Shown here: one piece after another, positions 672-28,900 of the stretch
Numbering within the stretch: the stretch's first letter is position 1
Layout: every line of letters begins with the position of its first letter
Assembly: GCA_964016885.1 (NCBI GenBank)
Contig: CAXHJY010001462.1
Span: 1-46,022 of the forward strand
From: Eledone cirrhosa
Lineage: Eukaryota
Length of the DNA stretch: 46,022 nt
Direction of reading: 5' to 3'
Position numbers and translations under genes: made by a program
Notes under the pieces: model-generated
What the model was told of the DNA's origin: nothing
The model's database searches: none
What the model saw: only the letters and a program-made list of their open reading frames with translations

Positions 672-4373
<3,702 letters not shown>

Positions 4374-4407
4374 AGATTTGAATGGATACAGTTTAGTTGA
4401 AAGGAAT

Positions 4408-4524
4408 TTATTGACACGTGTTTCTATAACAGTTACATAACCTAAAACAGCTATCTACAAACTTTTAGTTATGCAGACATTCAGTATTTCAATGTTATTA
4501 TTTACTGTCATTTCATCAGAATAA
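4408..4524 (-). ncRNA. Hammerhead ribozyme, inverted-arm copy of 9856-9972
   Basis: The + strand shows TTATTGACACGTGTTTC ... TCATCAGAATAA, the reverse complement of the HHR at 9856-9972. Confidence 0.65.
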
Positions 4525-5091
4525 TATTACTGAGGACCTATTTAGTTTTTATAGAGAATATTAGGAGGGAGGGGTGAAGTTGTTAGAAGAATAGTTGAAG
4601 GAGTGGTTTTTCGATAGCAGTGAGAATTCTTGGTGGCAGTGAGTAATTAGATTCCCATCTGTTGTTTTGACATTTTTTATAGAATATATTATTGGTTATT
4701 TTTCTAAATCTATAGAAGGATTAGAGATAGTAAAGATATGCGTGGTTGGTTTTGTGTTTGCACTTAACATTCAGACTTAAATTTTTCTTTCAAGTGTACG
4801 TATTCTTTCACCCACGCATTCACACACAAATATATTTGCACACCTCTACAAAATACATATACTCACAATTCACATATTCATACTTACATATATATACACA
4901 TGCATACACATATATATACACACATGTATTCATGTACATACATACGCGCTCATGTGTATACATTTTCATACTCAACTTATCTTTATATATACACACGTAT
5001 AGACACACACATATATACATACACACTCTAGTCCATGTGTACACACATACACATACATACACATCCATATACACATACATACATACACATA

Positions 5092-5152
<61 letters not shown>

Positions 5153-5476
5153 ATACATATACATATATACACATATATACATATACACACACACATATAT
5201 ATATATATAAGCACTTTAATACATGAATACACTTACATCTAACTATACACATCAAACATATATATATATTTACTTATTTATATACATTTTCACATATATA
5301 TACATACTTATGGACGTTTTTAGACATTCATTATCGCATATTTGTACCTATTCTCATCAGCATATCTTTTCATTATTAGTATGGTAATTTAAGGTTATTA
5401 ATATATGTTGAGAAGAGATTGTTTTTATATTTTTCTAACTAGATTAAGGTTTATATAGTTGGGGGATGTCCCTCTT

Positions 5477-6988
5477 TTATGTAATATTCTGCTTGTAGTG
5501 GGAAAAAAAGGTTTTAGTTCTGTGACGGCAGAATAATGTTCGTTCAATTCTGTTATTCAGCAGTTTCTTCTTGTGTGTGATTATGTAATAAATCTCAAGA
5601 TTACACAATTTGCAGAAATTTTGGCTCCTGGAAAAGCTTTGGGTTTTAGCTAATTTTTCCCATTTTAGGGTAAACTTTTGATTGCTATCCCTGAGCGTCC
5701 AAGCTTTTTCTGCTAAAGTTGTTACATTTCTTTGGCTCTGGTGTTTTATTGAGTAAGAATGCCTATACAATCGAGATTTAAACGATGTTGCCGTTGATCC
5801 CACGTAATACCACTCGTTGCCTCCGGATTTAATGGTACACTTATAAATAATATTTTTTTCCAGGCAGTTATTGCCGAGGGGGCAGTTGTCAGGATAGGTG
5901 CAGTTACAGTTGTGTACGTTGGGTTTTCTCTGGAGTAGTATTGCGGACGAACTTAGGTGTGGTTTATTTATGTTCTGTAGTGTATTGTCTACTGTTTTTT
6001 TGGGGTTCTTTGTACTTAAGTTCTTAGTGTTTTCGTTTAACCTTCTAGTATTGATCTTTTTTATGTGTTGTTCAAGGTTTAACGCTGTAGAGTATGACAG
6101 TCTTATAGTGGTAGGGTTTAGGATTTTGTGGTATTTGTGTGATGTGGGAAAATGTCTTTTAATTATTTTAAAGAAGAGTACTGGTAAATTTGTACTAATG
6201 GAGCTATTGTATTCGGGGTTATACCATAAGTACTCTTTGCATCGCTTTCTATTAGTTTTGTTTGTTGGTTTACTGGTGTGCATACTATGGTAGTAAGTGT
6301 GGTTTGGTGTTGTGTTATTATATCTACCTATGTGGGATTTATTTTGGGTGTTTTGATTGTTCCCATCTATGTACTCTATTTTGTTGAGGTAGCCTGCTTT
6401 ACTAAGGGCGTTATCGTAGTACTCGGCGTGTTCCTTAAATACTTGTATGTTAGAAGATAGACCCGAGATTCTAAGGGAAATATTTTTAGGGATAGATTTA
6501 ATTATAGAGATGGGGTGGTTAGACCCAACATTTACGTATTTGAGATTTTCATTCAATTTATGAAACGGTTTAATCAAACCAGAGTTTAAATTGAGTGTGA
6601 CATCCAGGAAGTTAACTACTTTAAGGTTGTATTCATATGTTATAGTTAGTCCTATTTCGAGTAGTAGTTTTCTTATATCTTTGCGTAGTTTTTCTAGTTT
6701 TTGGTTATTAAGGTTTTTAGCTAGGAGGAGAACATCGTCGCGGTATATTCCGCCGTGGAGATTGCTGAATTTTTCCTGGAGTCTAAAGGCGATAAATAAC
6801 CCCACAATATCAGTTATTTCCGCCGAATCGTTAGAGCCCATTGTTATGTCAAAGTTAGAGGGTCCATCTTTACGTACCCAATAACTGTTCTCAAATTTGA
6901 CTATAGTTTTCCTAGCTTCTAATATAATCTTAATTTCATCGTTTGTAATGTCAGAGTTATCCTTAGCAAACTTAATGGCTCTATTCAA
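5477..6988 (-). CDS. Partial PLE RT (C-terminal part) plus GIY-YIG endonuclease, inverted-arm copy
   Basis: Translation LNRAIKFAK...ITMGSNDSAE...GIYRDD...CNCTYPDNCPL...IIYKC...YYVGST. It differs from the + copy at about 3 residues. The first ~108 aa of ORF 5477..7312 are antisense read-through of the spacer. Confidence 0.85.
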   Translation of the reverse strand: MNRAIKFAKDNSDITNDEIKIILEARKTIVKFENSYWVRKDGPSNFDITMGSNDSAEITDIVGLFIAFRLQEKFSNLHGGIYRDDVLLLAKNLNNQKLEKLRKDIRKLLLEIGLTITYEYNLKVVNFLDVTLNLNSGLIKPFHKLNENLKYVNVGSNHPISIIKSIPKNISLRISGLSSNIQVFKEHAEYYDNALSKAGYLNKIEYIDGNNQNTQNKSHIGRYNNTTPNHTYYHSMHTSKPTNKTNRKRCKEYLWYNPEYNSSISTNLPVLFFKIIKRHFPTSHKYHKILNPTTIRLSYSTALNLEQHIKKINTRRLNENTKNLSTKNPKKTVDNTLQNINKPHLSSSAILLQRKPNVHNCNCTYPDNCPLGNNCLEKNIIYKCTIKSGGNEWYYVGSTATSFKSRLYRHSYSIKHQSQRNVTTLAEKAWTLRDSNQKFTLKWEKLAKTQSFSRSQNFCKLCNLEIYYIITHKKKLLNNRIERTLFCRHRTKTFFSHYKQNIT

Positions 6989-6989
6989 A

Positions 6990-8891
6990 GAATTACATAA
7001 AAAATATAGAAAAACGAGTGAAGTAACCCTTAAGCACATCAATGATGAGGCATGCGAAATAGTGAAAAATCTCGGAATCGAAGATAGGACAGGACCACTC
7101 TTACCGGCGGTACCCACCTTCAATCTTAAGGACCACAAGGTAAACTTTGATAATGACCCTAAAATTAGATTAATCTGCCCCTCTAAATCAGATATAGGTA
7201 AAATAAGCAAATATATCTTAGATAGAATCATCCCCCAAATTAAGGCTAAGGTTAACATTAAACTCTGGGGGAAGACCCAAGAAGCAATAAGATGGTTTAA
7301 TAGCATTAGCAATAAGAATAAATCTAAGTTTATCCAGTTTGATATCGATGAATATTACTCATCGATATCACCTGAAACTTTGAATAGAGCCATTAAGTTT
7401 GCTAAGGATAACTCTGACCTTACAAACGATGAAATTAAGATTATATTAGAAGCTAGGAAAACTATAGTCAAATTTGAGAACAGTTATTGGGTACGTAAAG
7501 ATAGACCCTCTAACTTTGACATAACAATGGGCTCTAACGATTCGGCGGAAATAACTGATATTGTGGGGTTATTTATCGCCTTTAGACTCCAGGAAAAATT
7601 CAGCAATCTCCACGGCGGAATATACCGCGACGATGTTCTCCTCCTAGCTAAAAACCTTAATAACCAAAAACTAGAAAAACTACGCAAAGATATAAGAAAA
7701 CTACTACTCGAAATAGGACTAACTATAACATATGAATACAACCTTAAAGTAGTTAACTTCCTGGATGTCACACTCAATTTAAACTCTGGTTTGATTAAAC
7801 CGTTTCATAAATTGAATGAAAATCTCAAATACGTAAATGTTGGGTCTAACCACCCCATCTCTATAATTAAATCTATCCCTAAAAATATTTCCCTTAGAAT
7901 CTCGGGTCTATCTTCTAACATACAAGTATTTAAGGAACACGCCGAGTACTACGATAACGCCCTTAGTAAAGCAGGCTACCTCAACAAAATAGAGTACATA
8001 GATGGGAACAATCAAAACACCCAAAATAAATCCCACATAGGTAGATATAATAACACAACACCAAACCACACTTACTACCATAGTATGCACACCAGTAAAC
8101 CAACAAACAAAACTAATAGAAAGCGATGCAAAGAGTACTTATGGTATAACCCCGAATACAATAGCTCCATTAGTACAAATTTACCAGTACTCTTCTTTAA
8201 AATAATTAAAAGACATTTTCCCACATCACACAAATACCACAAAATCCTAAACCCTACCACTATAAGACTGTCATACTCTACAGCGTTAAACCTTGAACAA
8301 CACATAAAAAAGATCAATACTAGAAGGTTAAACGAAAACACTAAGAACTTAAGTACAAAGAACCCCAAAAAAACAGTAGACAATACACTACAGAACATAA
8401 ATAAACCACACCTAAGTTCGTCCGCAATACTACTCCAGAGAAAACCCAACGTACACAACTGTAACTGCACCTATCCTGACAACTGCCCCCTCGGCAATAA
8501 CTGCCTGGAAAAAAATATTATTTATAAGTGTACCATTAAATCCGGAGGCAACGAGTGGTATTACGTGGGATCAACGGCAACATCGTTTAAATCTCGATTG
8601 TATAGGCATTCTTACTCAATAAAACACCAGAGCCAAAGAAATGTAACAACTTTAGCAGAAAAAGCTTGGACGCTCAGGGATAGCAATCAAAAGTTTACCC
8701 TAAAATGGGAAAAATTAGCTAAAACCCAAAGCTTTTCCAGGAGCCAAAATTTCTGCAAATTGTGTAATCTTGAGATTTATTACATAATCACACACAAGAA
8801 GAAACTGCTGAATAACAGAATTGAACGAACATTATTCTGCCGTCACAGAACTAAAACCCTTTTTTCCCACTACAAGCAGAATATTACATAA
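6990..8891 (+). CDS. 5'-truncated PLE reverse transcriptase plus C-terminal GIY-YIG endonuclease (Hydra-type)
   Basis: RT motifs LKDHK, RLICP, FIQFDIDEYYSSI, ITMGS and GIYRDD; CxCx5C linker (CNCTYPDNC); GIY-YIG as IIY...YVG...FKSRLYRH; CxxCxxE. The first ~30 aa of ORF 6897..8891 come from the inverted arm, and no native start is present. Confidence 0.9.
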   Translation, partial: ELHKKYRKTSEVTLKHINDEACEIVKNLGIEDRTGPLLPAVPTFNLKDHKVNFDNDPKIRLICPSKSDIGKISKYILDRIIPQIKAKVNIKLWGKTQEAIRWFNSISNKNKSKFIQFDIDEYYSSISPETLNRAIKFAKDNSDLTNDEIKIILEARKTIVKFENSYWVRKDRPSNFDITMGSNDSAEITDIVGLFIAFRLQEKFSNLHGGIYRDDVLLLAKNLNNQKLEKLRKDIRKLLLEIGLTITYEYNLKVVNFLDVTLNLNSGLIKPFHKLNENLKYVNVGSNHPISIIKSIPKNISLRISGLSSNIQVFKEHAEYYDNALSKAGYLNKIEYIDGNNQNTQNKSHIGRYNNTTPNHTYYHSMHTSKPTNKTNRKRCKEYLWYNPEYNSSISTNLPVLFFKIIKRHFPTSHKYHKILNPTTIRLSYSTALNLEQHIKKINTRRLNENTKNLSTKNPKKTVDNTLQNINKPHLSSSAILLQRKPNVHNCNCTYPDNCPLGNNCLEKNIIYKCTIKSGGNEWYYVGSTATSFKSRLYRHSYSIKHQSQRNVTTLAEKAWTLRDSNQKFTLKWEKLAKTQSFSRSQNFCKLCNLEIYYIITHKKKLLNNRIERTLFCRHRTKTLFSHYKQNIT

Positions 8892-9220
8892 AAGAGGGAC
8901 ATCCCCCAACTATATAAACCTTAATCTAGTTAGAAAAATATAAAAACAATCTCTTCTCAACATATATTAATAACCTTAAATTACCATACTAATAATGAAA
9001 AGATATGCTGATGAGAATAGGTACAAATATGCGATAATGAATGTGTCTAAAAACGTCCATAAGTATGTATATATATGTGAAAATGTATATAAATAAGTAA
9101 ATATATATATATGTTTGATGTGTATAGTTAGATGTAAGTGTATTCATGTATTAAAGTGCTTATATATATATATATATGTGTGTGTGTATATGTATATATG
9201 TGTATATATGTATATGTATG

Positions 9221-9292
<72 letters not shown>

Positions 9293-9855
9293 TATGTATG
9301 TATGTGTATATGGATGTGTATGTATGTGTATGTGTGTACACATGGACTAGAGTGTGTATGTGTATATATGTGTGTGTCTATACGTGTGTATATATAAAGA
9401 TAAGTTGAGTATGAAAATGTATACACATGAGCGCGTATGTATGTACATGAATACATGTGTGTATATATATGTGTATGCATGTGTATATATATGTAAGTAT
9501 GAATATGTGAATTGTGAGTATATGTATTTTGTAGAGGTGTGCAAATATATTTGTGTGTGAATGCGTGGGTGAAAGAATACGTACACTTGAAAGAAAAATT
9601 TAAGTCTGAATGTTAAGTGCAAACACAAAACCAACCACGCATATCTTTACTATCTCTAATCCTTCTATAGATTTAGAAAAATAACCAATAATATATTCTA
9701 TAAAAAATGTCAAAACAACAGATGGGAATCTAATTACTCACTGCCACCAAGAATTCTCACTGCTATCGAAAAACCACTCCTTCAACTATTCTTCTAACAA
9801 CTTCACCCCTCCCTCCTAATATTCTCTATAAAAACTAAATAGGTCCTCAGTAATA

Positions 9856-9972
9856 TTATTCTGATGAAATGACAGTAAATAATAACATTGAAATACTGAA
9901 TGTCTGCATAACTAAAAGTTTGTAGATAGCTGTTTTAGGTTATGTAACTGTTATAGAAACACGTGTCAATAA
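9856..9972 (+). ncRNA. Type I hammerhead ribozyme with minimal palindromic stem III and greatly extended stem II
   Basis: TTATT-CTGATGA(9861-9867) ... GAAAC-ACGT-GTC(9956-9967)-AATAA. Stem II base is ATGACAGT/ACTGTTAT enclosing ~70 nt, with an A-A mismatch at the first stem II pair. TATAAAA lies at 9827. Confidence 0.65.
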
Positions 9973-10122
9973 ATTCCTTTCAACTAAACTGTATCCATTC
10001 AAATCTTTCTATTTTTCTCCGGATTACTTTTGGAACTACAACTGGAACCGTCGAGCAAACTCTACGTGAGCTGATAATCTACTGTGTGTAATATTTATAT
10101 TAGAACACAACGGAAAATACTG

Positions 10123-13729
<3,607 letters not shown>

Positions 13730-13973
13730 AAAGGGAGCAGCGGCTGTTAGGGCAAGACGTGTTTTGCTTGGGCTCTGCTAGAGTCAGCAGCAACACACAA
13801 CCACGTGTTGCTACACACACACACACACAAGAGGAAAGAGAAAAAAATTTAAAATTCATGAGACCAATAGAGATATGTACATTTATATATTTATATCTAG
13901 ATATTGCTATTATCATTTACAGTCCCTCTGTGTTTAATGTATGTTCATTAGTATATGTGTTGTTATTTCTGCT

Positions 13974-14722
13974 TGCATTTTGCATATATACATATATATA
14001 TCTATATATATGCTTGCGTGAACCCCTCTCAAAAATTCGTTGGATTTTCTAATTGGATACCCCGACACTGGATACCAACACGGAATACACCTGAACTTCT
14101 ACCAGGAAATCTTTCGTTTACCGAAAATCTTTCGCGGATATAGAGGTTATCTCCCTTGCTGGACACCATGTGCGTCTCAGCTAGGGTTAGCTTTTTTATT
14201 CGTTTGGACAAGACCCGTTGATAAAGTGTTCCGGTCCGTCCGCTCTCTAGAAGTCTTATATATTTTTATGTGGGCTGATAGGGGGCGGATTAAGGAATTG
14301 CAGAAACCCAAGAAGCTAGATTTACCATCTTTCTAGTGGGTCCGGGTAAGCTTTTTACATTCATATGATTTATTGATTTATTGATATTTTATCTGAGTGA
14401 CCCGAATCTTCCTGGTCGTAATTTTTCGGCCGCATGGGTGATTTTAGACATAATCTTTGTGTGTTGGTATTTTAACGATAGTTATAGCTCTGATTTATCT
14501 GAATTATTGAGCCCTCTGCCACTCATGTCGGATTTGTTTATCGTAAACTCGTGAGCCGATTTTCCGATACTCGATTATTCTACTGCATTTTACATATATA
14601 CATATATATATCAATGCTTGCGTGGACCCCTCTTAAAGATTCGTTGGATTTTCTAATTGGATACCAATCACTGAATACACCTGAACTTCTACCAGGAAAT
14701 CTTTCATATCAGTGAAAATTTT
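13974..14722 (+). repeat. Imperfect ~140-155-bp direct repeat pair (~13974-14130 and ~14583-14722)
   Basis: Both copies contain TGCTTGCGTG(A/G)ACCCCTCT...TTCGTTGGATTTTCTAATTGGATACC...GAATACACCTGAACTTCTACCAGGAAATCTTTC. Confidence 0.85.
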
Positions 14723-14914
14723 CTTTTCTTTGCTTCATATATACAAAATTTTGAAGAGAGAGGAAAAGAGAGAAGTGATCTATGAACTTGTAACATCTCA
14801 CTGACCCCACGTCACCACAATAACAATAACGCCTACACTCGCTCCCCACCATCACCACATTACTCTAAGGTCGCTGTCCTGTCCCCTGTTGACATACTGC
14901 TGACTCTCTTTTGA

Positions 14915-15310
14915 TGTATGTATGTGTGTATACGTGTGTGTGTGTGTGTGTGTGTGTGTATGTATATCTCAGTGGATGCGACCAGATTTCAACACAGCAA
15001 CAACTACAACAACAACAGCAACAGCAACAACAACACCATCGTCTGTGTTGAATGTGTGTGTGTGTATGTATTTGTATATATGCGACAGCAATAACAGCAT
15101 CAACACCATTGTCTGCAGCAACAGCAGCAGTGAAATGAAGGACAACAACAACAACGACAACAACTACAATAACAACTACAGCACCAACAACTGCTACCAC
15201 CATCACTGACCATCCACCACCACCACGCTGATACCATCCACCACCACCACACTGACACCATCCACCATTACCAGCGTAAAGCAAACAATTATTATTGTTA
15301 TTGTTATTAT
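14915..15310. repeat. Low-complexity (TG)n, (CAA/CAG)n and (CCA)n tracts
   Basis: Direct reading of the sequence. Confidence 0.8.
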
Positions 15311-15738
15311 ATACAAGCCGAACTGGACTGGGAAAGGTCAACAGTTGACATGATAGTGATTTTGACGATTTTGATTTTGATTTTGTATCAGTACTGTCGG
15401 TAATATATGTATATATATATATATGTGTTAGTGAGTGGTGTGTGTGATTGTATGCATGAATGAGTGTTGGTATGTGTGGTTGTGGTTTGTATGCATGAGT
15501 ATTGGTGTGCGAGTCGTGTCAATAAGTTTTTTTTTTTTTTTTTTTTAATGACCATGCTGTAAAATGGAGGGGTAGAGAGGGCCCTTGAGTCTAGTAAGAC
15601 ATCCTCTCTAGTGCTGGTGGCACAAATAAAAGCACCCAGTCCATGCTGTAAAGTGGCGCTGGTGTTAGGAAGGGCATCCAACCAGTGTATCAATGCCAAA
15701 AAGCTTATCAGCACAGCAACAAAACAGCATAGAAAAAT

Positions 15739-17864
15739 ATGAAGACGTCGCATCTCAGAGTTGCAACACTTAATGTTGAACTCTCAGAGGTAGATCTGCT
15801 GAAATAGCGGAGATACTGGAGAGAAGGCAGGTGGATGTGTGCTGCGTGCAAGAGGTGAGATGGAGAGGTGCCTCTGCGAGACTAGTCGTAGGCAAGCGTC
15901 TTAGCTATAAGCTATTCTGGGTAGGTAAGGATGATGGGTTAGGGGGAGTGGGCATTTTCCTGGCTGAGAAATGGATCAATAAGACAATAGAGGTAGTTCG
16001 AGTTAGTAATCGAATAATTAAGCTTAGATTAGTTGTAGGTAGGAGACTACTGACAATCATCTCGGTCTATGCTCCCCAAGCAGGCCAAGGCAAAGATGAG
16101 AAAGACTGCTTTTATGAGCAACTTTTGCAAACAACCACAATGACAGAGGACGGAGACATCGTTATGCTAGCAGGAGACTTCAATGGTCATGTTGGACAGC
16201 TCCAGGATGGTTACACTGGGGTACATGGTGGGCACGGTTACGGTTCAAGAAATGAAGAAGGAGTGAGACTTCTTGAATTTTGTGATGCAAGTACATTGAC
16301 TATTTGCAACACAAACTTCCAGAAACCTGCCAATCACCTAATAACCTACAAATCTGGTGAGCACATAAGCCAGATTGACTTCCTGCTAGTTAGGCAGCGG
16401 GACAGGCAGATAGTGTCTAATACCAAGGCATACCCTGGGGAAGAATGTACCCCACAGCATAGGTTAGTTGTTAGTGATATCTCAGTAAGCAAGAGATGGA
16501 ATGAGACATATAGGAAGGTGTGGAGAAGAAAGGTCTGGAAGCTAAAAGACCTTTCACTAAAATACAAATTTAGGAAAGCCCTTCAAGATGTATATGACGA
16601 AAAAGAAGACGATTTAGAGACGTATGACATAGATAATAACTGGAAGTTCTTACGTGACAACTTGCTGCAGGCTACTGATGAAACCTGTGGCTGGAGCAGA
16701 GCTCCAACCAGACAGAGAGTGACCTGGTGGTGGAACAGCACAGTAGATAAGGCTATTAGAGACAAAAGACTAGCATGGAAGGCTTGGAAAAAGGGTGGGA
16801 GTAGGGAAGAATATACAGCCACTAAGAGAGAAGCTAGACGTCAGGTGTACTTAGCACGCAGGGAGGCAGAGAGTAGGAGGTTTGCCAATGTTCTGCGACG
16901 GGAAGATCAGAGGCGTGCGGTGTTCCACATTGCAAGGCAGTGTGTCAATGCAAATCAGGATGTTGTTGGAGATAAATGTGTCCGGGATGATGCCGGTGTA
17001 CTTAGTGTCACGAATGACCAGAAAAAGGAGGCCTGGAAATGTCATTATGAGAGACTGATGAATGTGGAGAACGAATGGGAGAGAGAGAAATTACCCTTGG
17101 TAGATCCGACAGAGGGACCAGCTATTGAGATTGACGAATATAGGGTCCAAGAGGCGATTAGGGAAATGAAAAATGGTAAGGCGGCCGGACCATCGGGAAT
17201 AGTTGCTGAGATGCTGAAGGCATCAGGGGACGTAGGCACTAAACTGGTTGCACGCATCATCAATCAGGCTATATATGGTGGTGTCATACCCAAAGACTGG
17301 TGCAGCAGTATTCTCATAAATTGCTACAAAGGTAAAGGGGATGCTTTGGAGAGGAGCAATTATAGGGGTATAAAACTGATAGATCAGGTTATGAAAGTGG
17401 CAGAAAGGATTTTAGCACAACTAATTAGAGAAAGGGTCAAACTAGATGAGATGCAGTTTGGTTTTGTGCCTGGGAAGAGTACAACAGATGCCCTCTTCTT
17501 GGTGAGACAAATGCAAGAGAGGTTCTTAGAGAAGAATAAGCCACTATACTTAGCCTTTGTTGACCTAGAGAAGGCCTTTGATAGGGTACCCCGATCTGTC
17601 ATCTGGTGGTCCCTAAGGAAGCTAGGTGTTGAGGAATGGCTTGTGAGGACAGTGCAAACTTTGTACAGAGGTACTCTCAGTAAAGTCAGGGTAGGAATGG
17701 AGTTTAGTGAGGAATTCCAGATACAAGTAGGAGTACATCAAGGTTCGGTCCTCAGCCCGCTCTTGTTCATTATAGTCCTCCAAGCCATAACAGAGGAGTT
17801 GAAGACTGGCTGTCCATGGGAACTTCTCTATGCTGACGATCTGGCTCTTATAGCAGAATCAGTA
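15739..17864 (+). pseudogene. 5' half of an RTE-clade LINE ORF: AP endonuclease plus RT up to the YADD motif
   Basis: ATG at 15739 gives MKTSHLRVATLNV; a 1-bp deletion near 15778 then shifts into TLRGRSAEIAEILERRQVDVCCVQE. APE motifs SVYAPQ, GDFNGHVG, QIDF and QHR. RT motifs YRGIKL, QFGF, FVDLEKAFD, GVHQGSVLSP and YADD. Confidence 0.9.
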
Positions 17865-19673
17865 GTAAAGAATAAATCAAATTTCACTCCGCCAAAAGGA
17901 AGAAATATTTATCTCGACCAATACATTGACATCCTGTCTAAATTTCCTCTTAGACATAATACTAATGTTAGGCCAAACATTAACAAATCAGAAATGTCTG
18001 CACTTAAACGTATACAAAATGATAAAACAATAATAATTAAACAAGCAGATAAAGGGGGTGCAGTTGTTATAATGGATACTGAATACTACAAGGATTTGGT
18101 TGAGGAACAACTGAAAGACACAACATTCTATCATGAAATACCGTCAAATATAGACCACAACATCATGAAGAAGATCAACAACCTGGCTTCAAAATACCAC
18201 AACTCATTTACTGATAAGGAAAGAGACTACATCACCAATTTTGAGCCGAAACCCAGCAACCTGTATGGCCTACCGAAAGTTCACAAGTCAAAAGAAATAC
18301 AACTGGCAGTAAGAGAACAAAACAGTGAGTACATTAAATTATTACACCCAAAAGACTTAAAACTTAGACCTATTATAGCTGGTCCAACATGCCCCACTCA
18401 CCGTCTAAGCAATTTTGTTGACATTATTTTGAAACCACTATGTATTCTCATACCCAGTTTCATCTGGGATGATATCGACTTCCTGTCCCATCTTCCCAAA
18501 ACCACGGAAACGAATTCACTTCTACTCAGTTTTGATGTGGTAAGCCTTTACACCAATATTACACATGATTTAGGAATAAAGGCGGTTAAATACTGGGTGG
18601 AAAAACATAGAGAAGTGATTCCCATTAGATTCACAGTGCCATTTATATTAGACGCAGTTAAACTTATTCTGGAAAACAACACTTTCTTCTTCAATGGAAA
18701 GAATTACATCCAAATTAGAGGCACAGCGATGGGAACGAAGTTTGCTCCCGTTAACGCGAACTCTGTAATGGGATACTTAGAACAACAACTCTACCAAGAA
18801 ATAGAGGAAAAATATAGTACTGACTTTAGAAAGTACATTGAAAAATCTTGGAAGAGATACCTTGACGACTGTTTCATCATCTGGACAGAATCTCTAGATA
18901 CTCTGGATGAGTTCAATATCCTCCTGAATAACCTACACCCATCTCTCCAATTCACAAAAGAGATGAGTAGGACCAAATTACCATTCCTAGATATGATAAT
19001 CAAAAACGACACCACCATTACCACGGATATATATTATAAACACACAGACACCCATCAATATCTGAATTTTAAGTCGTGCCCTCCACCTCATACAAAACGC
19101 AACATCCCATACTGCCTAGCCAGAAGAATTTGTACCATTGTAGAAGATACGAATACCAGGTACAAACGCCTAACAGAACTAAGAGAATTTTTGCTCAAAC
19201 AAAAATACCCATCTCTACTTATAGAAAATGGCATACAGCGGGCTATAAAAATACCTATACAACAACTTAGAACAACCCAAGGAAGAAGAAACCAAGAACT
19301 GGTCATACCATTTATAATGACACACAACCCATGTCACCAGAATATATTCAACACTGCCAAAGCAAACCTACCGATCATTGCACAAAGTAATGAATTAAAA
19401 GGCTTAATCACAGATCGATCTTTGACTCTTAGTAAAAGACAGCCAAAAAATTTGAAGCAATTGCTAACAAAAGCAAAGTTTGACCTTAACAACAAAGACC
19501 AATCATTCACTGTATCTAAATGCAATGATAATCGATGCGGCACATGTCAATCCATACACGCCGGTCAATATATGAAAACAAAAACTGGAAAAATATTCCC
19601 AAATGCAAATATGAACTGCAAAAGCAGAAATCTAATTTACTGCATTAAATGCCCAAATTGTGAAGAACTATAA
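15831..19673 (+). CDS. Chimeric 1280-aa open frame: RTE APE-RT(partial) fused in frame to a Neptune-type PLE RT
   Basis: No stop across the junction ...LLYADDLALIAESV|VKNKSNFTPPKGRN... at ~17862-17867. Confidence 0.8.
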   Translation: MDVCCVQEVRWRGASARLVVGKRLSYKLFWVGKDDGLGGVGIFLAEKWINKTIEVVRVSNRIIKLRLVVGRRLLTIISVYAPQAGQGKDEKDCFYEQLLQTTTMTEDGDIVMLAGDFNGHVGQLQDGYTGVHGGHGYGSRNEEGVRLLEFCDASTLTICNTNFQKPANHLITYKSGEHISQIDFLLVRQRDRQIVSNTKAYPGEECTPQHRLVVSDISVSKRWNETYRKVWRRKVWKLKDLSLKYKFRKALQDVYDEKEDDLETYDIDNNWKFLRDNLLQATDETCGWSRAPTRQRVTWWWNSTVDKAIRDKRLAWKAWKKGGSREEYTATKREARRQVYLARREAESRRFANVLRREDQRRAVFHIARQCVNANQDVVGDKCVRDDAGVLSVTNDQKKEAWKCHYERLMNVENEWEREKLPLVDPTEGPAIEIDEYRVQEAIREMKNGKAAGPSGIVAEMLKASGDVGTKLVARIINQAIYGGVIPKDWCSSILINCYKGKGDALERSNYRGIKLIDQVMKVAERILAQLIRERVKLDEMQFGFVPGKSTTDALFLVRQMQERFLEKNKPLYLAFVDLEKAFDRVPRSVIWWSLRKLGVEEWLVRTVQTLYRGTLSKVRVGMEFSEEFQIQVGVHQGSVLSPLLFIIVLQAITEELKTGCPWELLYADDLALIAESVVKNKSNFTPPKGRNIYLDQYIDILSKFPLRHNTNVRPNINKSEMSALKRIQNDKTIIIKQADKGGAVVIMDTEYYKDLVEEQLKDTTFYHEIPSNIDHNIMKKINNLASKYHNSFTDKERDYITNFEPKPSNLYGLPKVHKSKEIQLAVREQNSEYIKLLHPKDLKLRPIIAGPTCPTHRLSNFVDIILKPLCILIPSFIWDDIDFLSHLPKTTETNSLLLSFDVVSLYTNITHDLGIKAVKYWVEKHREVIPIRFTVPFILDAVKLILENNTFFFNGKNYIQIRGTAMGTKFAPVNANSVMGYLEQQLYQEIEEKYSTDFRKYIEKSWKRYLDDCFIIWTESLDTLDEFNILLNNLHPSLQFTKEMSRTKLPFLDMIIKNDTTITTDIYYKHTDTHQYLNFKSCPPPHTKRNIPYCLARRICTIVEDTNTRYKRLTELREFLLKQKYPSLLIENGIQRAIKIPIQQLRTTQGRRNQELVIPFIMTHNPCHQNIFNTAKANLPIIAQSNELKGLITDRSLTLSKRQPKNLKQLLTKAKFDLNNKDQSFTVSKCNDNRCGTCQSIHAGQYMKTKTGKIFPNANMNCKSRNLIYCIKCPNCEEL

Positions 19674-20105
19674 GTCGGTCAAACTGGAAATGCACTATCG
19701 GAACGTGCACGGGTACACCGTCAACAAATCAGAGACCAAAATGTCTGTCAGATACCCTTAAGCGGCCACCTGGCAACATGTGGTCAGGGAATATTTATAA
19801 TATTTCCATTCTACAAATTACACAGCCCAAGTGAAATCAAGAGAAAAATCAAAGAAGAGAATTTTATTGATAAATTCAAACCCAAGCTAAATTAACAATA
19901 ATAACGCCTAGGGGTATTACTTCTACTACCACTATGACCACGACCACTAACAACAACAACAACAACAATAATAATAATAATAAAAGTGATGTTGATGGTG
20001 ATGATTAATAGAAAATGCTATTTTCATCATTTCAAAAAGCAAAACAATTGATACATTGGGTATGACTATTGGACGTTAGCATGCTCAACCAGCCGTGACG
20101 CTTAA

Positions 20106-20212
20106 ACCAATCAGCTGTAGTAATTCAGTGAAACTACACACTGATTGGTCGAAATACAGTTTACAGGGCTTTGCATTCTGGAGCCACTTTTCTCTGTATA
20201 AAATGTATAAAA
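20106..20212 (+). promoter_or_regulatory. Putative pLTR promoter: inverted CCAAT pair plus two TATAAAA boxes upstream of the HHR
   Basis: ACCAATCAG(20106-20114)/CTGATTGGT(20141-20149); TATAAAA at 20197 and 20206. Confidence 0.45.
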
Positions 20213-20275
20213 GGTAGTAAATTTACCCATCTCATTACAGTTGAAAATTGCAAACTCGACTGTCACCACATATCA

Positions 20276-20314
20276 TGAACCTGAAGATTGCGAAAGCATG
20301 AAAGTACTTGTTCA
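20276..20314 (+). ncRNA. Minimal type I hammerhead ribozyme (dimer type)
   Basis: TGAAC-CTGAAGA-TTGC GAAA GCAT-GAAA-GTAC-TT-GTTCA. Stem I is TGAAC/GTTCA, loop III is palindromic GTAC, and cleavage is predicted after 20309. Confidence 0.75.
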
Positions 20315-20480
20315 ATTAACACTTAGAATTTAATATTCTATCATGCTATTTCATTATAATACCATATTATATATATTTTAAAGGATTGTAAATAAAACGA
20401 GTAAATCAGACAAAGTTGGAATTCCTCTTATTAATATAATCTTCTATACACAATCATACACACCCGTGTATATTTACCTA

Positions 20481-21145
20481 TCTATATCTATATATATATA
20501 TATATATACACATACACACATATATATATATATACACATATATATATATATATACACATATATATATATATATACACATATATATATATATATACACATA
20601 TATATATACACACACATATATATATATATATACACACATATATATATATATACACACACATATATATATATATATACACACATATATATATATATATACA
20701 CACATATATATATATATATACACACATATATATATATATATACACACATATATATATATATATACACATATATATATATATATACACACATATATATATA
20801 TATATACACACATATATATATATATACACACACATATATATATATATACACACACATATATATATACATACACACACATATATATATACATACACACACA
20901 TATATATATACATACACACACATATATATATACACACACATATATATATACACACACATATATATATACACATATATACACACACATATATATATACACA
21001 CACATATATATATATACACACACATATATATATATACACACACATATATATATACACACATATATATATATATATATACACACACATATATATATATATA
21101 TACACACACATATATATATATATACACACATATATATACACACAC

Positions 21146-21176
<31 letters not shown>

Positions 21177-21735
21177 TATATACATACACATATATACACA
21201 TACACACATATATACACATACACACATATATACACATACACACATATATACATACACACACATATATACATACACACATATATACATACACACATATATA
21301 CATACACACATATATACATACACACACATATATACATACACACACATATATACATACACACACATATATACATACACATATATACATACACACATATATA
21401 CATACACATATATACATACACATATATACATACACACATATATACATACACACATATATACATACACACATATATACATACACACATATATACATACACA
21501 CATATATACATACACACATATATACATACACACATATATACATACACACATATATACATACACACATATATACATACACACATATATACATACACACATA
21601 TATACATACACACATATATATATACACATATATACATACACATATATATACATACACATATATATACACACACATATATATACACACATATATATATACA
21701 CACATATATATATACACACATATATATATACACAC

Positions 21736-21767
<32 letters not shown>
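20481..21767. repeat. (TA)n/(CA)n compound microsatellite
   Basis: Direct reading of the sequence. Confidence 0.97.
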
Positions 21768-22410
21768 GGTGGCTGCCAACTCGTTTTCGAGTACGGCCAC
21801 CACTTTATATCCATGTAGGAGAACCCCTACCGAAGCGCTGAACGAGTGTGACTTTTTAGTCCAGCCAGCGACTTGAAAACTCTGGTACAAACACTACACT
21901 TGTGACAATTATTGACACATAGTGCTGGGCCCATGGTACCATGTGAGGACAAGTGCAGAGAGATCTCCAGATATAAAGCAATGCCTGTGCCGTGAAGCTT
22001 TTATAGTGAGCAAAGGCACTGCACAAAGCCAGTCCCACTCTCTTAACCAAGATGATATTTACCACTCTTAACCAAGATGATATTTACCAAAAAGAAGAAC
22101 AAGTCAACAAGTCAACATCATTGGATACCATCAGGGTTGCAGGTGTTATATCAGAGTTTTCCTTCTCCTAGAATTCTGCCTTGACAAAGGCTAAGGGGTC
22201 ATCTCTCCCAGTGATTTTGGATGGCCATTGACTCTTAAGAGCTCCTTTGCCCTTTGACAGGCTTTGTTTTTAGTCCTGCAGGATGTCCAAAGCCACCCTC
22301 CTCACCAAGAAACCTTGGTGGGGTTGCCAGTTTAGTCGCCAACGACCCGACCATGAGACAGGTTGTACTGGGATACATGTTACCAGTAGCACCAACTGGT
22401 GACCTGACAT
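21768..22410 (-). mobile_element. Non-coding 610-bp-family element, copy 1 (643 bp, more diverged); probably a non-autonomous RTE derivative
   Basis: Same termini as three later copies, plus extra 25-bp and 8-bp tandem duplications. The minus strand carries CTAGGAGAAGGAAAACTCTGA, which I recall from RTE-type 5' UTRs (not verified). Confidence 0.65.
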
Positions 22411-22656
22411 AATATGTGTATATATATATATACACATATATATATACACATAGTATTAGTTATACTATTTATGGTTATGTAAATACAAAACCTTATGCAG
22501 TTATAAGTATTTTACACACACCCTAAATAGTGGTAGGCAGTAATGTATTACTACCTTATTACCAGTAAGTTAAGTAGCTCAATGTAAAAACATCAGATGA
22601 TTTACAGAGCAGTTATATGAAATATAAGAATCAAAGAACTGTTCAAAACATTATTG

Positions 22657-22703
22657 TGCTTACAGCTGTTTCCTCCAAACCGAGGTTTGGATTCTTCGGA
22701 GCA
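22657..22703 (-). ncRNA. Hammerhead ribozyme (left arm of the fold-back element)
   Basis: Reverse complement of 22949-22995. Confidence 0.65.
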
Positions 22704-22948
22704 ATTTATTAATGCATGGACAGTTATATGACCTCCTTTTCAGCAGAGAGACATACCGATACATATTCAAACATTGATACATATTCAAACATTGTGGGTC
22801 AACATTCATTACACAATTTAGACTGCCACTCTAAATTCTGTAATTAATGTTGACCCACAATGTTTGAATATGTATCAATGTTTGAATATCTATCGGTATG
22901 TCTCTCGGCTGAAAAGGAGGTCATATAACTGTCCATGCATTAATAAAT

Positions 22949-22995
22949 TGCTCCGAAGAATCCAAACCTCGGTTTGGAGGAAACAGCTGTAAGCA
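22949..22995 (+). ncRNA. Minimal type I hammerhead ribozyme, U4C core variant
   Basis: TGCT-CCGAAGA-A TCCAAACC TC GGTTTGGA G-GAAAC-AGCT-GTA-AGCA. Loop III is palindromic AGCT, and cleavage is predicted after 22991. Confidence 0.65.
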
Positions 22996-23035
22996 CAATG
23001 TTTTGAACAGTTCTTTGATTCTTATATTTCATATA

Positions 23036-24188
<1,153 letters not shown>

Positions 24189-25444
24189 ATCATCATCATC
24201 ATCATCATCATCAGGTTTAGCGTCCGTGTTCCACGCTTGCATGGGTTTGGACGGGGGTTTTCCCACTTGAGGCAAGAGTGGTTGTCTTGCTCGCATAGGA
24301 CTGTCTGGCGGGTTTTCTACAGTTGGATGCCCTTCCTAACACCAACCACATTTACAGTGTGGGGCTGGGAGGTTTTTACCGTGTTGCCTACACGGCCACA
24401 TTACAGCGTGGACTGTCTGGCGGGTTTTCTACAGCTGGATGCCCTTCCTAACACCAACCACATTTACAGTGTGGGGCTGGGAGGTTTTTACCGTGTTGCC
24501 TACACGGCCACATTTACAGCGTGGACTGTGTGTTTTTTGTCGTGACACCTACACGATCTCATTTGTTTCGGCCTGGATGTTGTGGGACCAACATAACTTT
24601 ACATTGAAAGGGGCGGTGTGGGTGGGGTGGAGGGTGGTGGGACGGGGGTGTGTTTTGATAGAGATGCCTACTGACTGTAGTAGGTTTTTACTTTGTATTT
24701 AGGTAAGGCGGGTCTTCTCTATTACTGAGTACCGCCAAAGGTCTCGGTCCAGTGACATTGTCTTGGAGAGGTGTAAGCGTGTGAGGTCGGAATTTATCAG
24801 CTCGTCCCATGTTTTTCTGGGTCTGCCTACTCCGTGGCTACCGTCTATCTTTATTGCCCTGCACTTTGTTATACAGCTGTCGTCTTTCATGCGCATCACG
24901 TGACCGTACCAACGTAGCCTTCTCTCGAGTAAACAACATCTGATCCCTCTTATTTCTAATTTTTTCCTTAGTTCGTTTATGCTTTGCCGTTCACGTATAT
25001 TACTATTGCACATCCAGCGGAGCATGCAAGCTTCGTTCCTCTCTAGTCTGCGTATATCCTCTGCACACAATGCCCAGGTCTCACTGCCATGCAGCATTGC
25101 TGTTCGTATGCAGGCATCGTATAACCTGCCTTTCATTTTTAGGGAGAACCCTCTAGCGGCTAATAGTGGTATAAGCTCTCTGAACTTTTTCCATCCAGTT
25201 CTGACTCTAGCTACTGTACTTTCAGAGCACCCTCCCCCACTGCTGATTTTGTCACCCAGATAACGGAAGCTGTCCACTATTTCTATAGAACCCTCTGCGC
25301 AGTTGAAGGAGCTAGTATATTGTGGGCACTTGCTGCTACTTATTGCACCAGAGCACCGGCCACATGTAAAATCTATGTTCTTAGTTAGCTTACCTGTGAT
25401 TCCACTACATCTTTTATGCACCCATACTTTGCATTTGGGACATA
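24189..25444 (-). mobile_element. 5'-truncated RTE LINE 3' fragment (PHD-like finger, RT thumb, 3' UTR, (GAT)n tail)
   Basis: 24699-25444 translates to [12 protein letters not shown]...FRYLG...MLHGSETW...[11 protein letters not shown]...GRPRKTW. (CAT)n lies at 24189-24212. Confidence 0.92.
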
Positions 25445-26750: not shown

Positions 26751-28900
26751 TCTATCTAAGGCGGGTAAAATTCCCGAGATCCATGGACGAGTTCTCTCCA
26801 GCGGTCTCTGTCCCTCATTATCGTTGCCATATCCTGCATCTCCAACAGACCAGTGTCTGTCCTTAGGGCATCAACATATGTTAACCTTGGTCTTCCTCTT
26901 CTAGTGTGTCCATGTAGGGGCTCCCAAATGAGTACTGAGTGCAATGTCAACTCTGGATGTCGGTGAGCATGTCCAGCCAACCTCAGTCTCCTCTGTGTCA
27001 CTTTTGAGCTGACTTTTGGGATGCTCCCATACAGCTCTGAGTTTTTCATCCTCAGTGTATACTGATTAATGTTCAGAGCCATCCTCAGCATTCTCGTGTA
27101 GCACCCATCCACCATCTGAGTGAGTCTCTTTGTCAGTGTCCAAGTCTCAGACCCATACAGCAGCACAGACTCCACTACAGCAATGAAGAGGCGGATTTTC
27201 AGGTCTCTACGAAGGTCCGACTTCCACACCGATCTCAAGCTGTGACACGCCGCCCAGGCCTTGCTCTTCCTCTCAACCACATCATCTTCCGTATTCCCAA
27301 TCTTTGCTCCCAAATACAGGAAGTCCTCAACCAATTCCAGCGGCTTCCCACCTACATTAGTGATCCCCTCTGGCTTCTCAACATTCTCTACCAGATATTT
27401 TGTTTTAGTCTCATTCATTCTCAGCCCCACACTCATCGACACAGTCTCAACCTCCCACATCAAATCCTCTGCCTCCTTCACTGTATTTGTCACCAAAACT
27501 ATGGAGTCGGCAAATTCAGTATCCGATACCTTTTTCGCCCCAACTCTCCTGCTCTGAGCCGGTGCTACAGTAAAGCCAGTGTCCTGGTGTTTCTCCAGTG
27601 CAAGGCGCATACAATAGTCCACTACGATGATAAAAAGGTAGGGAGCCAATGTATCTCCCTGGAGCACTCCAGCCAGTATCTCAAAGAACTCTGTCATCCC
27701 ATCAGGTGTAATGCCTTGGGCTTTGGTGTTGGTGTAGAGCAGTGATATCAGGTCCACTATCCTCTTGGGGATTCCATAAGCCTGTAAGATCTTCATCAGG
27801 CAGTAACGGTCCACAGAATCAAAGGCCTTCCTAAAGTCAATGAAAACCATGACCGCAGGAAGGCACTTTGCTCTAGCTCCCTCTAATATCCTCCTCAGCA
27901 TCAGGATGTGACTGGTGGTTGATCTACCCTCTCTGAAGCCGTTCTGGTTGTCCCTGAGCTTCTTCTCCATCTCAGGCTGGATCCTGTTAAGAATCATCCT
28001 GTTGAAGGTCTTTGCCACAAGTGACGTCAGTGAGATACCCCGGTAGTTGTTGGTGTTAGAGAGTTCTACCTTCTTTGGCACTGGGACGATGTTACTGATC
28101 CTCCACTGATTCGGGGCAACTCCTTTCTCCAGTGCCCCGTTACAGAACCCCAGGATGATATCATCAAAATCACACCTCTTCATCACCTCTCATGCCACTC
28201 CATCTTCTCCATGAGCCTTGCCCTCCTTCATCTTCTTGGCTCTCTGAAGCTCCTCTCTGGTGAAGGGCTCTGTCTCAACATCCAGTTCCTCAAACAGCCG
28301 CCTGATCTCCCCAGTGCTCTGGGCTGTGGAGGGTGGCTCTCCTAGTAGGGTCCTAAAATGGTCTAGCCATTTCCTCTTCCTATCCTCGGGCCCCGTTCCC
28401 TGGATCTGACTCGAACACCTTTTCCTCCCTGTGATCTCGTTGATGATCATCCAGCTCTCCTTACATCCAGATCTGTCAACTGCTCTCTCCACACTTCTGA
28501 TCTTCTCTATCAGTGCCTCCTCTCTGACCTCAGTGTAAGCGGTACAGAGCTCTTCCCTCATCACCTCCACAGTCTCCACCCTCTCCTCCGTAGGATCAAC
28601 ATAGAATTGGTCCCTGGCAGCTTTCAGGTGTTCTCTGGCTGCACACACTTTTGGGTCTGCAGAGCTGATGTGCTTCCCTTTGTTCTTTTCCTCGGCACCA
28701 GGGTTTCACTTGCTTTCGCCACTGCATTGGTGAAGTGCCCGTACCTCCTCGTCACACTCTCCTCAGTCCATCCAATCTCTCTCTCCTCTGACTCTCCACA
28801 CAGAGCACTAAACCTGTTTCTCACTTCCACTGTGAACCTCTCCTGTAGCTTATCATCTTCCTTGGAAGCTCCCCAGTCATAGATAGTTCTCCGGGGCTGA
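26751..28900 (-). mobile_element. 5'-truncated, frameshifted RTE-clade LINE of a second family (RT domain, no APE left)
   Basis: ORFs 28624-28900, 28190-28648 and 26756-28186 give VEVRNRF, YRGISL, QNGFR, FIDFRKAFD, GVLQGDTLAP, FADSI (catalytic D lost), FLYLG, YGSETW and GRPR. Confidence 0.92.

What the first reader, a model, noticed from the sequence alone, without database searches (positions are those of the whole stretch)
15739..20480. In-frame LINE-Penelope chimera: APE, RTE RT, Penelope RT, GIY-YIG and hammerhead in one reading frame
Seen: a single frame runs from an RTE AP endonuclease and RT (to YADD) straight into a Neptune-type PLE RT and GIY-YIG. The missing RTE 3' half is not found after the PLE; the PLE ends in (TA)n, and the unique block to the left begins at (TA)n (13729). 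Established: LINEs and PLEs are separate retroelement orders with different endonucleases. Inference: this is not a simple nested insertion. Either the PLE RT primed in (TA)n and template-switched onto an RTE-containing RNA, making 13729-20480 one chimeric insertion, or a deletion fused two neighbours. A dual-RT, dual-nuclease family is the exciting alternative. Caveats: an in-frame join arises by chance 1 time in 3, and this copy has a 1-bp deletion near 15778 and a stop at 19671.
Basis: partly seen in the sequence, partly recalled or inferred. Interest (0 to 1): 0.75.

Follow-up and report, generated by a model that had tools for sequence, protein, structure and literature searches.

The report
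One-off fusion of two jumping genes
Broken copies of two common, unrelated jumping genes are joined in frame at a 10-letter look-alike patch; the join occurs once in the genome assembly and most likely comes from an ordinary deletion between neighbours, not from a new hybrid element.

Summary
The frame is real: 15780-19670 (1297 codons) runs from an RTE-type AP endonuclease and RT into a Penelope-like RT and linker. It is not a family. The junction 38-mer occurs once in the 3.0-Gb assembly, while each half is 98-99% identical to a separate young, high-copy family. The parents share 9 of 10 letters at the join (17856-17865); 48 of 200,000 random joins do so, and 117 of 258 such patches are in frame. 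The 'unique' left block is the RTE's own 5' UTR plus a nested third repeat, so (TA)n on both sides simply reflects both families' target. Locus L117 shows the undeleted arrangement RTE-(ATG)n-(TA)n-truncated PLE. Both halves are crippled: frameshift, stop inside the GIY-YIG, RT end and PHD finger lost, PLE N-terminus lost. The hammerhead lies in the 3' UTR, not in frame. Best reading: microhomology-guided deletion between neighbours (0.6); rivals are a PLE template switch, internal priming by the RTE, or a library chimera. Reads of the assembled animal were not available.

The parts
10123..13729 (.). (TA)n-rich microsatellite, left flank and likely insertion target of the RTE
   Evidence: other RTE copies begin at the same letters, mostly after TA-rich DNA
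13732..15738 (+). 5' UTR of the RTE family (complete 5' end), with a short internal repeat unit and CA/CAA/GT simple repeats
   Evidence: shared with all 29 other loci fetched and continuous with the RTE ORF in 20 of 20 extended loci
14118..14587 (+). 470-bp 3' piece of a third high-copy repeat (tandem unit of about 600 bp that ends in (TA)n elsewhere), nested in the RTE UTR; replaces about 13 nt, no target duplication; single-copy junction
15739..17865 (+). RTE ORF, 5' two thirds: AP endonuclease and RT up to 8 codons past YADD; 1-bp loss near 15778; lacks about 314 codons (end of RT, PHD finger, C-terminus) and the (ATG)n tail
17856..17865 (+). Junction: 10-nt patch in which the two parents match 9 of 10; the window follows the RTE through the mismatch and the PLE after the last three shared letters
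   Evidence: single copy
17863..19892 (+). Penelope-like ORF2 without its first 96 codons: RT (YLDD 18858-18869), C-x4-C-x2-C linker (19521-19547), GIY-YIG with CCHH residues (19629-19892) broken by a stop at 19671
19893..20478 (+). PLE 3' UTR / pseudo-LTR, with the family's normal 3' end
   Evidence: the same stretch recurs direct or inverted upstream of sister copies
20276..20314 (+). Minimal type-I hammerhead-like motif (CUGAAGA core, 3-bp stem II, GAAA, palindromic stem III); cleavage untested
   Evidence: 23 of 27 sister occurrences identical over 48 nt; no Rfam match
20479..21767 (.). (TA)n/(CA)-mixed microsatellite, right flank and target of the PLE

Best explanation
A full-length RTE LINE copy and a Penelope-like copy are joined at a 9-of-10-letter match, once in the assembly, likely because the DNA between two neighbours in one (TA)n tract was deleted by microhomology-guided joining, and the open frame is likely chance. 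Shown: the two parent families, the exact join, its single copy, the decay of both halves, and an undeleted tandem of the same two families elsewhere (L117). Inferred: that both elements first inserted separately; that at least about 1 kb (RTE 3' end, tail, spacer, PLE 5' part) was lost; that the join was made on DNA, either in later break repair (favoured) or while the PLE attached its 5' end. The product is predicted to be a dead copy: no start codon for the endonuclease, a cut RTE RT, a PLE RT without its conserved N-terminal block and a stop in the GIY-YIG.
For: One match of the junction 38-mer with up to 1 mismatch; only the window carries both halves among 40 scored of 2514 candidates and 40 of 1175. 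9/10 match at the join against 48 of 200,000 random joins; 117 of 258 such 10-mer pairs between the two ORFs are in frame. Both families insert in (TA)n and 3 of 40 ten-kb loci hold both (L104, L117, L125); L117 has intact RTE ORF, (ATG)n, 1.1 kb (TA)n, then a PLE cut 112 nt upstream of the junction site, same strand. 2 of 45 other RTE loci have also lost their 3' end. 0 of 44 PLE loci are joined to this RTE and at most 3 of 32 truncated ones to foreign non-TA DNA, so a switch onto foreign sequence is not this family's habit. Private changes: 12 non-synonymous to 7 synonymous; 6 in 2122 RTE bases, 17 in 2613 PLE bases, each near its own family's median (2.8 and 5.0 per kb). Precedent: a Penelope inside a LINE with a microhomology 5' junction and no TSD, and microhomology deletions in Penelope copies (PMC3846280, passages).
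Against: No undeleted allele of this locus was found: its other private junction is also single-copy, and L117 is a different locus (it shares 1 of the window's private PLE alleles). The age difference between the halves is not significant (p=0.09 for the ORF part, 0.26 with the UTR). The 4 internal deletions of 20 nt or more seen in sister copies have only 0-2 nt of exact microhomology, so long microhomology is not typical of deletions here. All four biological routes give the same final sequence, and a target duplication cannot be read in (TA)n. The junction was not seen in reads.
Confidence: 0.6

Rival explanations
1. One chimeric insertion: the PLE RT primed in (TA)n, copied 2.6 kb of its own RNA, jumped at the 10-nt match onto an RTE RNA and copied it to its 5' end; the third repeat came later.
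For: Same strand, microhomology, natural PLE 3' end and natural RTE 5' end bound the block. PLE 5' truncations often join other copies of their own family (20 of 44 loci). RT template switching makes same-sense chimeras in LINE-1 (PMC13174262, passages).
Against: 0 of 44 PLE loci joined to this RTE; the PLE half carries about twice the private changes of the RTE half (not significant); needs a further 4 kb of copying; both ends are equally explained by two ordinary insertions.
Confidence: 0.13
2. RTE-driven join: a break near the 5' part of an older PLE copy primed the RTE RT inside the RTE RNA, which explains the lost RTE tail; the complete RTE 5' end was then attached to (TA)n with loss of some target DNA.
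For: The likeness goes on past the join: after a 6-nt loop in the RTE, 11 of 12 further letters match the PLE side, as a primer would need. The PLE half looks older. The same PLE stretch, 8-18 nt upstream, took two separate SINE-like insertions in L115 and L120. 3'-truncated, tail-less L1 insertions with target deletions are described (PMC1920257, passages).
Against: Those L1 cases are mostly also 5'-truncated (18 of 21 in PMC1920257, passage), while this RTE is 5'-complete; 43 of 45 sister loci keep the (ATG)n tail.
Confidence: 0.13
3. Library or assembly chimera: two repeat copies from different places were joined in an amplified library or during assembly.
For: The window is a whole, unplaced 46-kb contig made almost only of repeats; no listed contig bridges the junction in X1, X3 or X4.
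Against: Those runs differ from the assembly's family alleles (for example at 17909 and 19346) and lack most private alleles of this copy, so they likely come from other animals, and such contigs drop rare variants. A 10-nt overlap is too short for overlap assemblers and blunt ligation leaves no homology (general knowledge); the sequence is clean, 98-99% to both families with few indels.
Confidence: 0.1
4. A mobile dual-RT, dual-nuclease family.
For: The frame is open across the join, and the block has a LINE 5' UTR and a PLE 3' end with hammerhead motif.
Against: One copy; 115 RTE-only, 5 PLE-only and 0 double hits among the 120 best of 531 public proteins of 713-2270 aa; neither RT is whole; neutral-looking decay.
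Confidence: 0.02

Closest known systems
Pen2_Av Penelope inserted in a non-LTR retrotransposon, Adineta vaga (PMC3846280; passages read)
   Same: PLE joined to LINE DNA at its 5' side through microhomology, no target duplication; microhomology deletions disable copies
   Different: There the PLE sits inside the LINE and is an intact partial tandem; here the LINE's 3' part is gone, the PLE ends in (TA)n, and the join happens to be in frame
LINE-1 chimeric insertions by template switching or RNA ligation, e.g. U6/L1 and Alu/L1 (PMC13174262, passages; PMC2104539, search listing only)
   Same: Two RNAs' sequences in the same sense, the 3' partner 5'-truncated
   Different: Those are shown by TSDs and recurrence; here one case, no readable TSD, and the 3' partner is a PLE
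Non-classical (endonuclease-independent) L1 insertions (PMC1920257; passages)
   Same: 3'-truncated LINE without tail or TSD, microhomology at the junction
   Different: Mostly short and 5'-truncated; verified by empty alleles, which are lacking here
Neptune/Nematis-type EN+ PLEs (PMC8557442; passages) and single-ORF RTE-type LINEs with a PHD finger (Pfam)
   Same: The two parent families are ordinary members of these kinds
   Different: Each half here is a truncated, mutated copy

Membership tests
EN+ Penelope-like element, Neptune/Nematis type (3' half) | RT followed by a C-terminal GIY-YIG endonuclease with CCHH residues | tested here: met
   Intact sister L106: RVT_1 and GIY-YIG; window 99% alike but stopped at 19671
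EN+ Penelope-like element, Neptune/Nematis type (3' half) | CX2-5CxxC linker between RT and EN (PMC8557442) | tested here: met
   C-x4-C-x2-C at 19521-19547, kept in 5 of 5 public relatives aligned
EN+ Penelope-like element, Neptune/Nematis type (3' half) | Pseudo-LTRs, tandem and inverted copies, microsatellite bias | tested here: met
EN+ Penelope-like element, Neptune/Nematis type (3' half) | Hammerhead motif in the pLTR | tested here: inconclusive
   Core letters and stems present and conserved; monomer fold no better than shuffles (z 1.33); no Rfam match; dimer fold -16.4 kcal/mol predicted; cleavage untested
Neptune clade proper (against Nematis) | Position in the RT tree among named references | not tested
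   No named reference sequences came from the tools
RTE-type LINE (5' half) | Single ORF with AP endonuclease then RT; short-repeat 3' tail | tested here: met
   Sisters have one ORF of 1022-1025 codons stop to stop with APE, RT and PHD, and an (ATG)n tail; the clade name RTE rests on this layout and on recall, no tree made
Mobile chimeric family | Several copies of the same junction with different flanks | tested here: not met
   1 match in the assembly
Mobile chimeric family | Intact, selected fusion ORF | tested here: not met
   Frameshift, stop, 12 non-synonymous to 7 synonymous private changes; 0 of 120 public hits with both halves
Single-event template-switch chimera | One target duplication around the whole block, or an empty allele | not testable with these tools
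   Flanks are (TA)n; no allele in the assembly; no reads shown to be of the same animal

The most novel reading that the evidence does not exclude
A Penelope-like RT jumped onto a LINE RNA and copied it to its 5' end, making in one step an element with a LINE promoter region, APE-RT-RT-GIY-YIG in one frame and a PLE 3' end with hammerhead: a snapshot of the cross-order module swapping that is invoked to explain how retroelements gained and exchanged endonucleases.
Probability: 0.13. Interest if true: 0.5.

Novelty: new member of a known kind. Interest (0 to 1): 0.15.

Why it matters
Little as it stands: a single dead chimera in a repeat-filled contig. It shows that where a LINE and a Penelope-like family share one microsatellite target, tandems are common and a short deletion can put their domains in one frame almost half the time, which is a plausible raw material for domain shuffling between retroelement orders. 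It also warns that a long multi-domain ORF in such genomes is no evidence of a new family. A proven cross-order template switch would be a worthwhile note on PLE mechanism.

Tried and rejected
Undeleted allele: the UTR-insert junction is single-copy and the contig's left end is another high-copy repeat, so no anchor to a chromosome was found. L117 as the source locus: rejected, its RTE is 5'-truncated and it shares 1 private allele. No sister shares the window's private PLE alleles beyond 0-2 hits a site. Reads: no RNA holder listed. Contigs of X1-X4 show only the parental continuations as loose ends at 17856 and 17865 (both tables were cut); in RAD run X19 six reads cover 17868-17875 but were not listed, so nothing can be said. 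Rfam found only simple-repeat miRNA noise. The junction patch is not among the top local alignments of the two families: it is a microhomology, not shared ancestry. The first deletion count left out full-length copies by a filter and was redone. Hit counts include loci fetched twice, and all sister loci were picked as the nearest matches to the window, so divergences are biased low. Literature: searches for a LINE-PLE fusion listed nothing on point; PMC11167929 has no passage on microhomology or switching; PMC13282606 has none on chimeras. Only open-access full texts were searched, no supplements were read, and repeat libraries such as Repbase or Dfam could not be searched. No structure prediction was run, as it would not decide anything.
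Full report
Observation. The + strand has a stop-free frame from 15780 to 19670, 1297 codons. Pfam finds an AP endonuclease and two RT stretches. The first RT ends 8 codons after YADD; the frame goes on into a Penelope-like RT, a C-x4-C-x2-C linker and the start of a GIY-YIG, whose YIG tyrosine is a stop at 19671. The family ATG at 15739 is out of frame through a 1-bp loss near 15778, and the first in-frame ATG is at 16140. The hammerhead-like motif is at 20276-20314, in the 3' pseudo-LTR and outside the ORF.

Setting. The window is the whole of an unplaced 46-kb contig of a 3.0-Gb assembly, made of (TA)n tracts and repeats.

Parents. The RTE half has at least 559 candidate places, with 40 of 40 scored at 99-100%. 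The PLE half has at least 1175, with 39 other places scored at 99%. Intact RTE sisters have one ORF of 1022-1025 codons with APE, RT and a PHD finger and end in (ATG)n. Intact PLE sisters have an upstream ORF of about 480-500 codons, a 775-codon RT/GIY-YIG ORF, and direct or inverted pseudo-LTRs. The window lacks about 314 RTE codons and the tail, and the first 1557 nt of the PLE, with 96 codons of its second ORF; these hold a block conserved in 5 of 5 public relatives aligned. Neither RT is whole.

The left block. It is the RTE's 5' UTR: all 40 scored candidates of 5022 matched, the 14 other loci in which an exact 20-mer from the start was found begin at the same letters, mostly after TA-rich DNA, and in 20 of 20 extended loci the UTR runs into the same ORF. 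Inside it, 14118-14587 is the 3' part of a third repeat (2849 candidates; a tandem unit of about 600 bp that ends in (TA)n elsewhere), which replaces about 13 nt without a duplication. So (TA)n on both sides is what two separate insertions would give as well.

The junction. The parents match at 9 of 10 letters over 17856-17865; the window follows the RTE through the mismatch and the PLE after the last three shared letters. In 200,000 random joins of the two ORFs, 48 had such a match, so the join was guided by homology. Of 258 pairs of 10-mers with at most one mismatch between the two ORFs, 117 are in frame, so the open frame had a chance near 45%. After a 6-nt loop in the RTE a further 11 of 12 letters match. 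The junction 38-mer, with one mismatch allowed, occurs once in the assembly; a 2-kb query across it found both halves only in the window among 40 scored of 2514 candidates. Among the 120 best of 531 public proteins (713-2270 aa), 115 match the RTE half only, 5 the PLE half only and none both.

Decay and age. Of 19 private coding changes, 12 are non-synonymous (one is the stop) and 7 synonymous. The RTE ORF has 6 private changes in 2122 bases and the PLE 17 in 2613; family medians are 2.8 (21 copies) and 5.0 (24 copies) per kb. The difference leans to an older PLE but is not significant (p=0.09; 0.26 with the UTR), and the comparison sets were chosen by nearness.

Background in this genome. 3 of 40 ten-kb loci hold both families. 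L117 has an intact RTE ORF, its (ATG)n tail, about 1.1 kb of (TA)n and a PLE cut 112 nt upstream of the junction site, on the same strand: a deletion of about 2 kb at the same patch would give the window's join. It is not the source of this locus. 2 of 45 other RTE loci have lost their 3' end. Of 44 distinct PLE loci, 12 run on past the view, 20 join their own family, 9 join (TA)n, 3 join other DNA and none joins this RTE; two of the 44 (L005, L020) are really SINE-like insertions in longer copies. Against my reading: 4 internal deletions of 20 nt or more in sister copies show only 0-2 nt of exact microhomology, and no undeleted allele was found.

Reads. Contigs of runs X1-X4 show only the parental continuations at the junction, and no listed piece bridges it. 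These runs differ from the assembly's family alleles (17909: T in 40 of 52 assembly hits, C in nearly all of the depth in the runs) and lack most private alleles of this copy, so they likely come from other animals and do not test the assembly. RAD run X19 was inconclusive.

Mechanism. Four routes give this same sequence: later deletion between tandem neighbours; PLE 5' attachment to upstream RTE DNA with target loss; a PLE RT switch onto RTE RNA; and internal priming of the RTE RT at a break in PLE DNA. I put the two DNA-level joins together at 0.6 (later repair favoured), the RNA switch and RTE priming at 0.13 each, an artefact at 0.1 and a mobile family at 0.02. That the join is a one-off of two ordinary families holds under all but the last.

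Known cases. PMC3846280 (passages) describes a Penelope in a LINE with a microhomology 5' junction and no TSD, and microhomology deletions in Penelope copies. PMC13174262 (passages) describes same-sense LINE-1 chimeras from template switching or ligation, shown by TSDs. PMC1920257 (passages) describes tail-less 3'-truncated L1 insertions. PMC8557442 (passages) gives the linker as a mark of Neptune and Nematis and links it to microsatellite bias. Searches for an in-frame LINE-PLE fusion listed none in this open-access library; that does not cover repeat databases, subscription journals or supplements.

Verdict. Real in the assembly, single-copy, dead, and explained by known processes; interest 0.15.

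Noticed in passing
window 14118-14587; L088-L101: A third high-copy repeat (2849 candidates) with a tandem unit of about 600 bp that ends at fixed letters before (TA)n, like a non-autonomous PLE or retrozyme; no canonical hammerhead core found by pattern in four copies. It may be related to the scrambled-hammerhead repeats of earlier notes; not tested.
   Followed up: partly
L115 and L120, PLE position 1539-1548 (8-18 nt upstream of the junction site): Two insertions of one SINE-like family, of different lengths, at the same site of the PLE ORF with 9-10 nt duplications, in 2 of 44 loci: a possible insertion hot spot set by tail-target likeness.
   Followed up: partly
window 4370-10000 (ORFs 6885-8888 + and 5480-7354 -): Another Penelope-like family as a large inverted pair with a 668-codon RT/GIY-YIG-like frame that Pfam does not name.
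   Followed up: no
L102 4064-5551 and sisters: The PLE family has an upstream ORF of about 480-500 codons, in another frame and overlapping the RT ORF by about 90 nt; no Pfam family above cut-off. PLEs are described as single-ORF in PMC8557442 (abstract).
   Followed up: partly
RTE family, e.g. L123: 5' UTR of about 1.6-2 kb with a variable number of short tandem units and simple repeats, and a PHD finger directly after the RT, shared with many public relatives.
   Followed up: partly
window 22614-23035: A 420-bp near-perfect palindrome (96%) ending in (TA)n.
   Followed up: no
window 31237-38300: Tandem units of about 2.9-3.3 kb made of a 650-bp repeat, a SINE-like piece with (ATG)n and (TA)n; a further copy of the 650-bp repeat at 21767-22420.
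   Followed up: no
window 26759-28900 (-), 24782-25307 (-), 39455-40346 (+): Pieces of other LINE families; the last two are 91% alike and about 68-70% like the 3' half of this RTE.
   Followed up: partly
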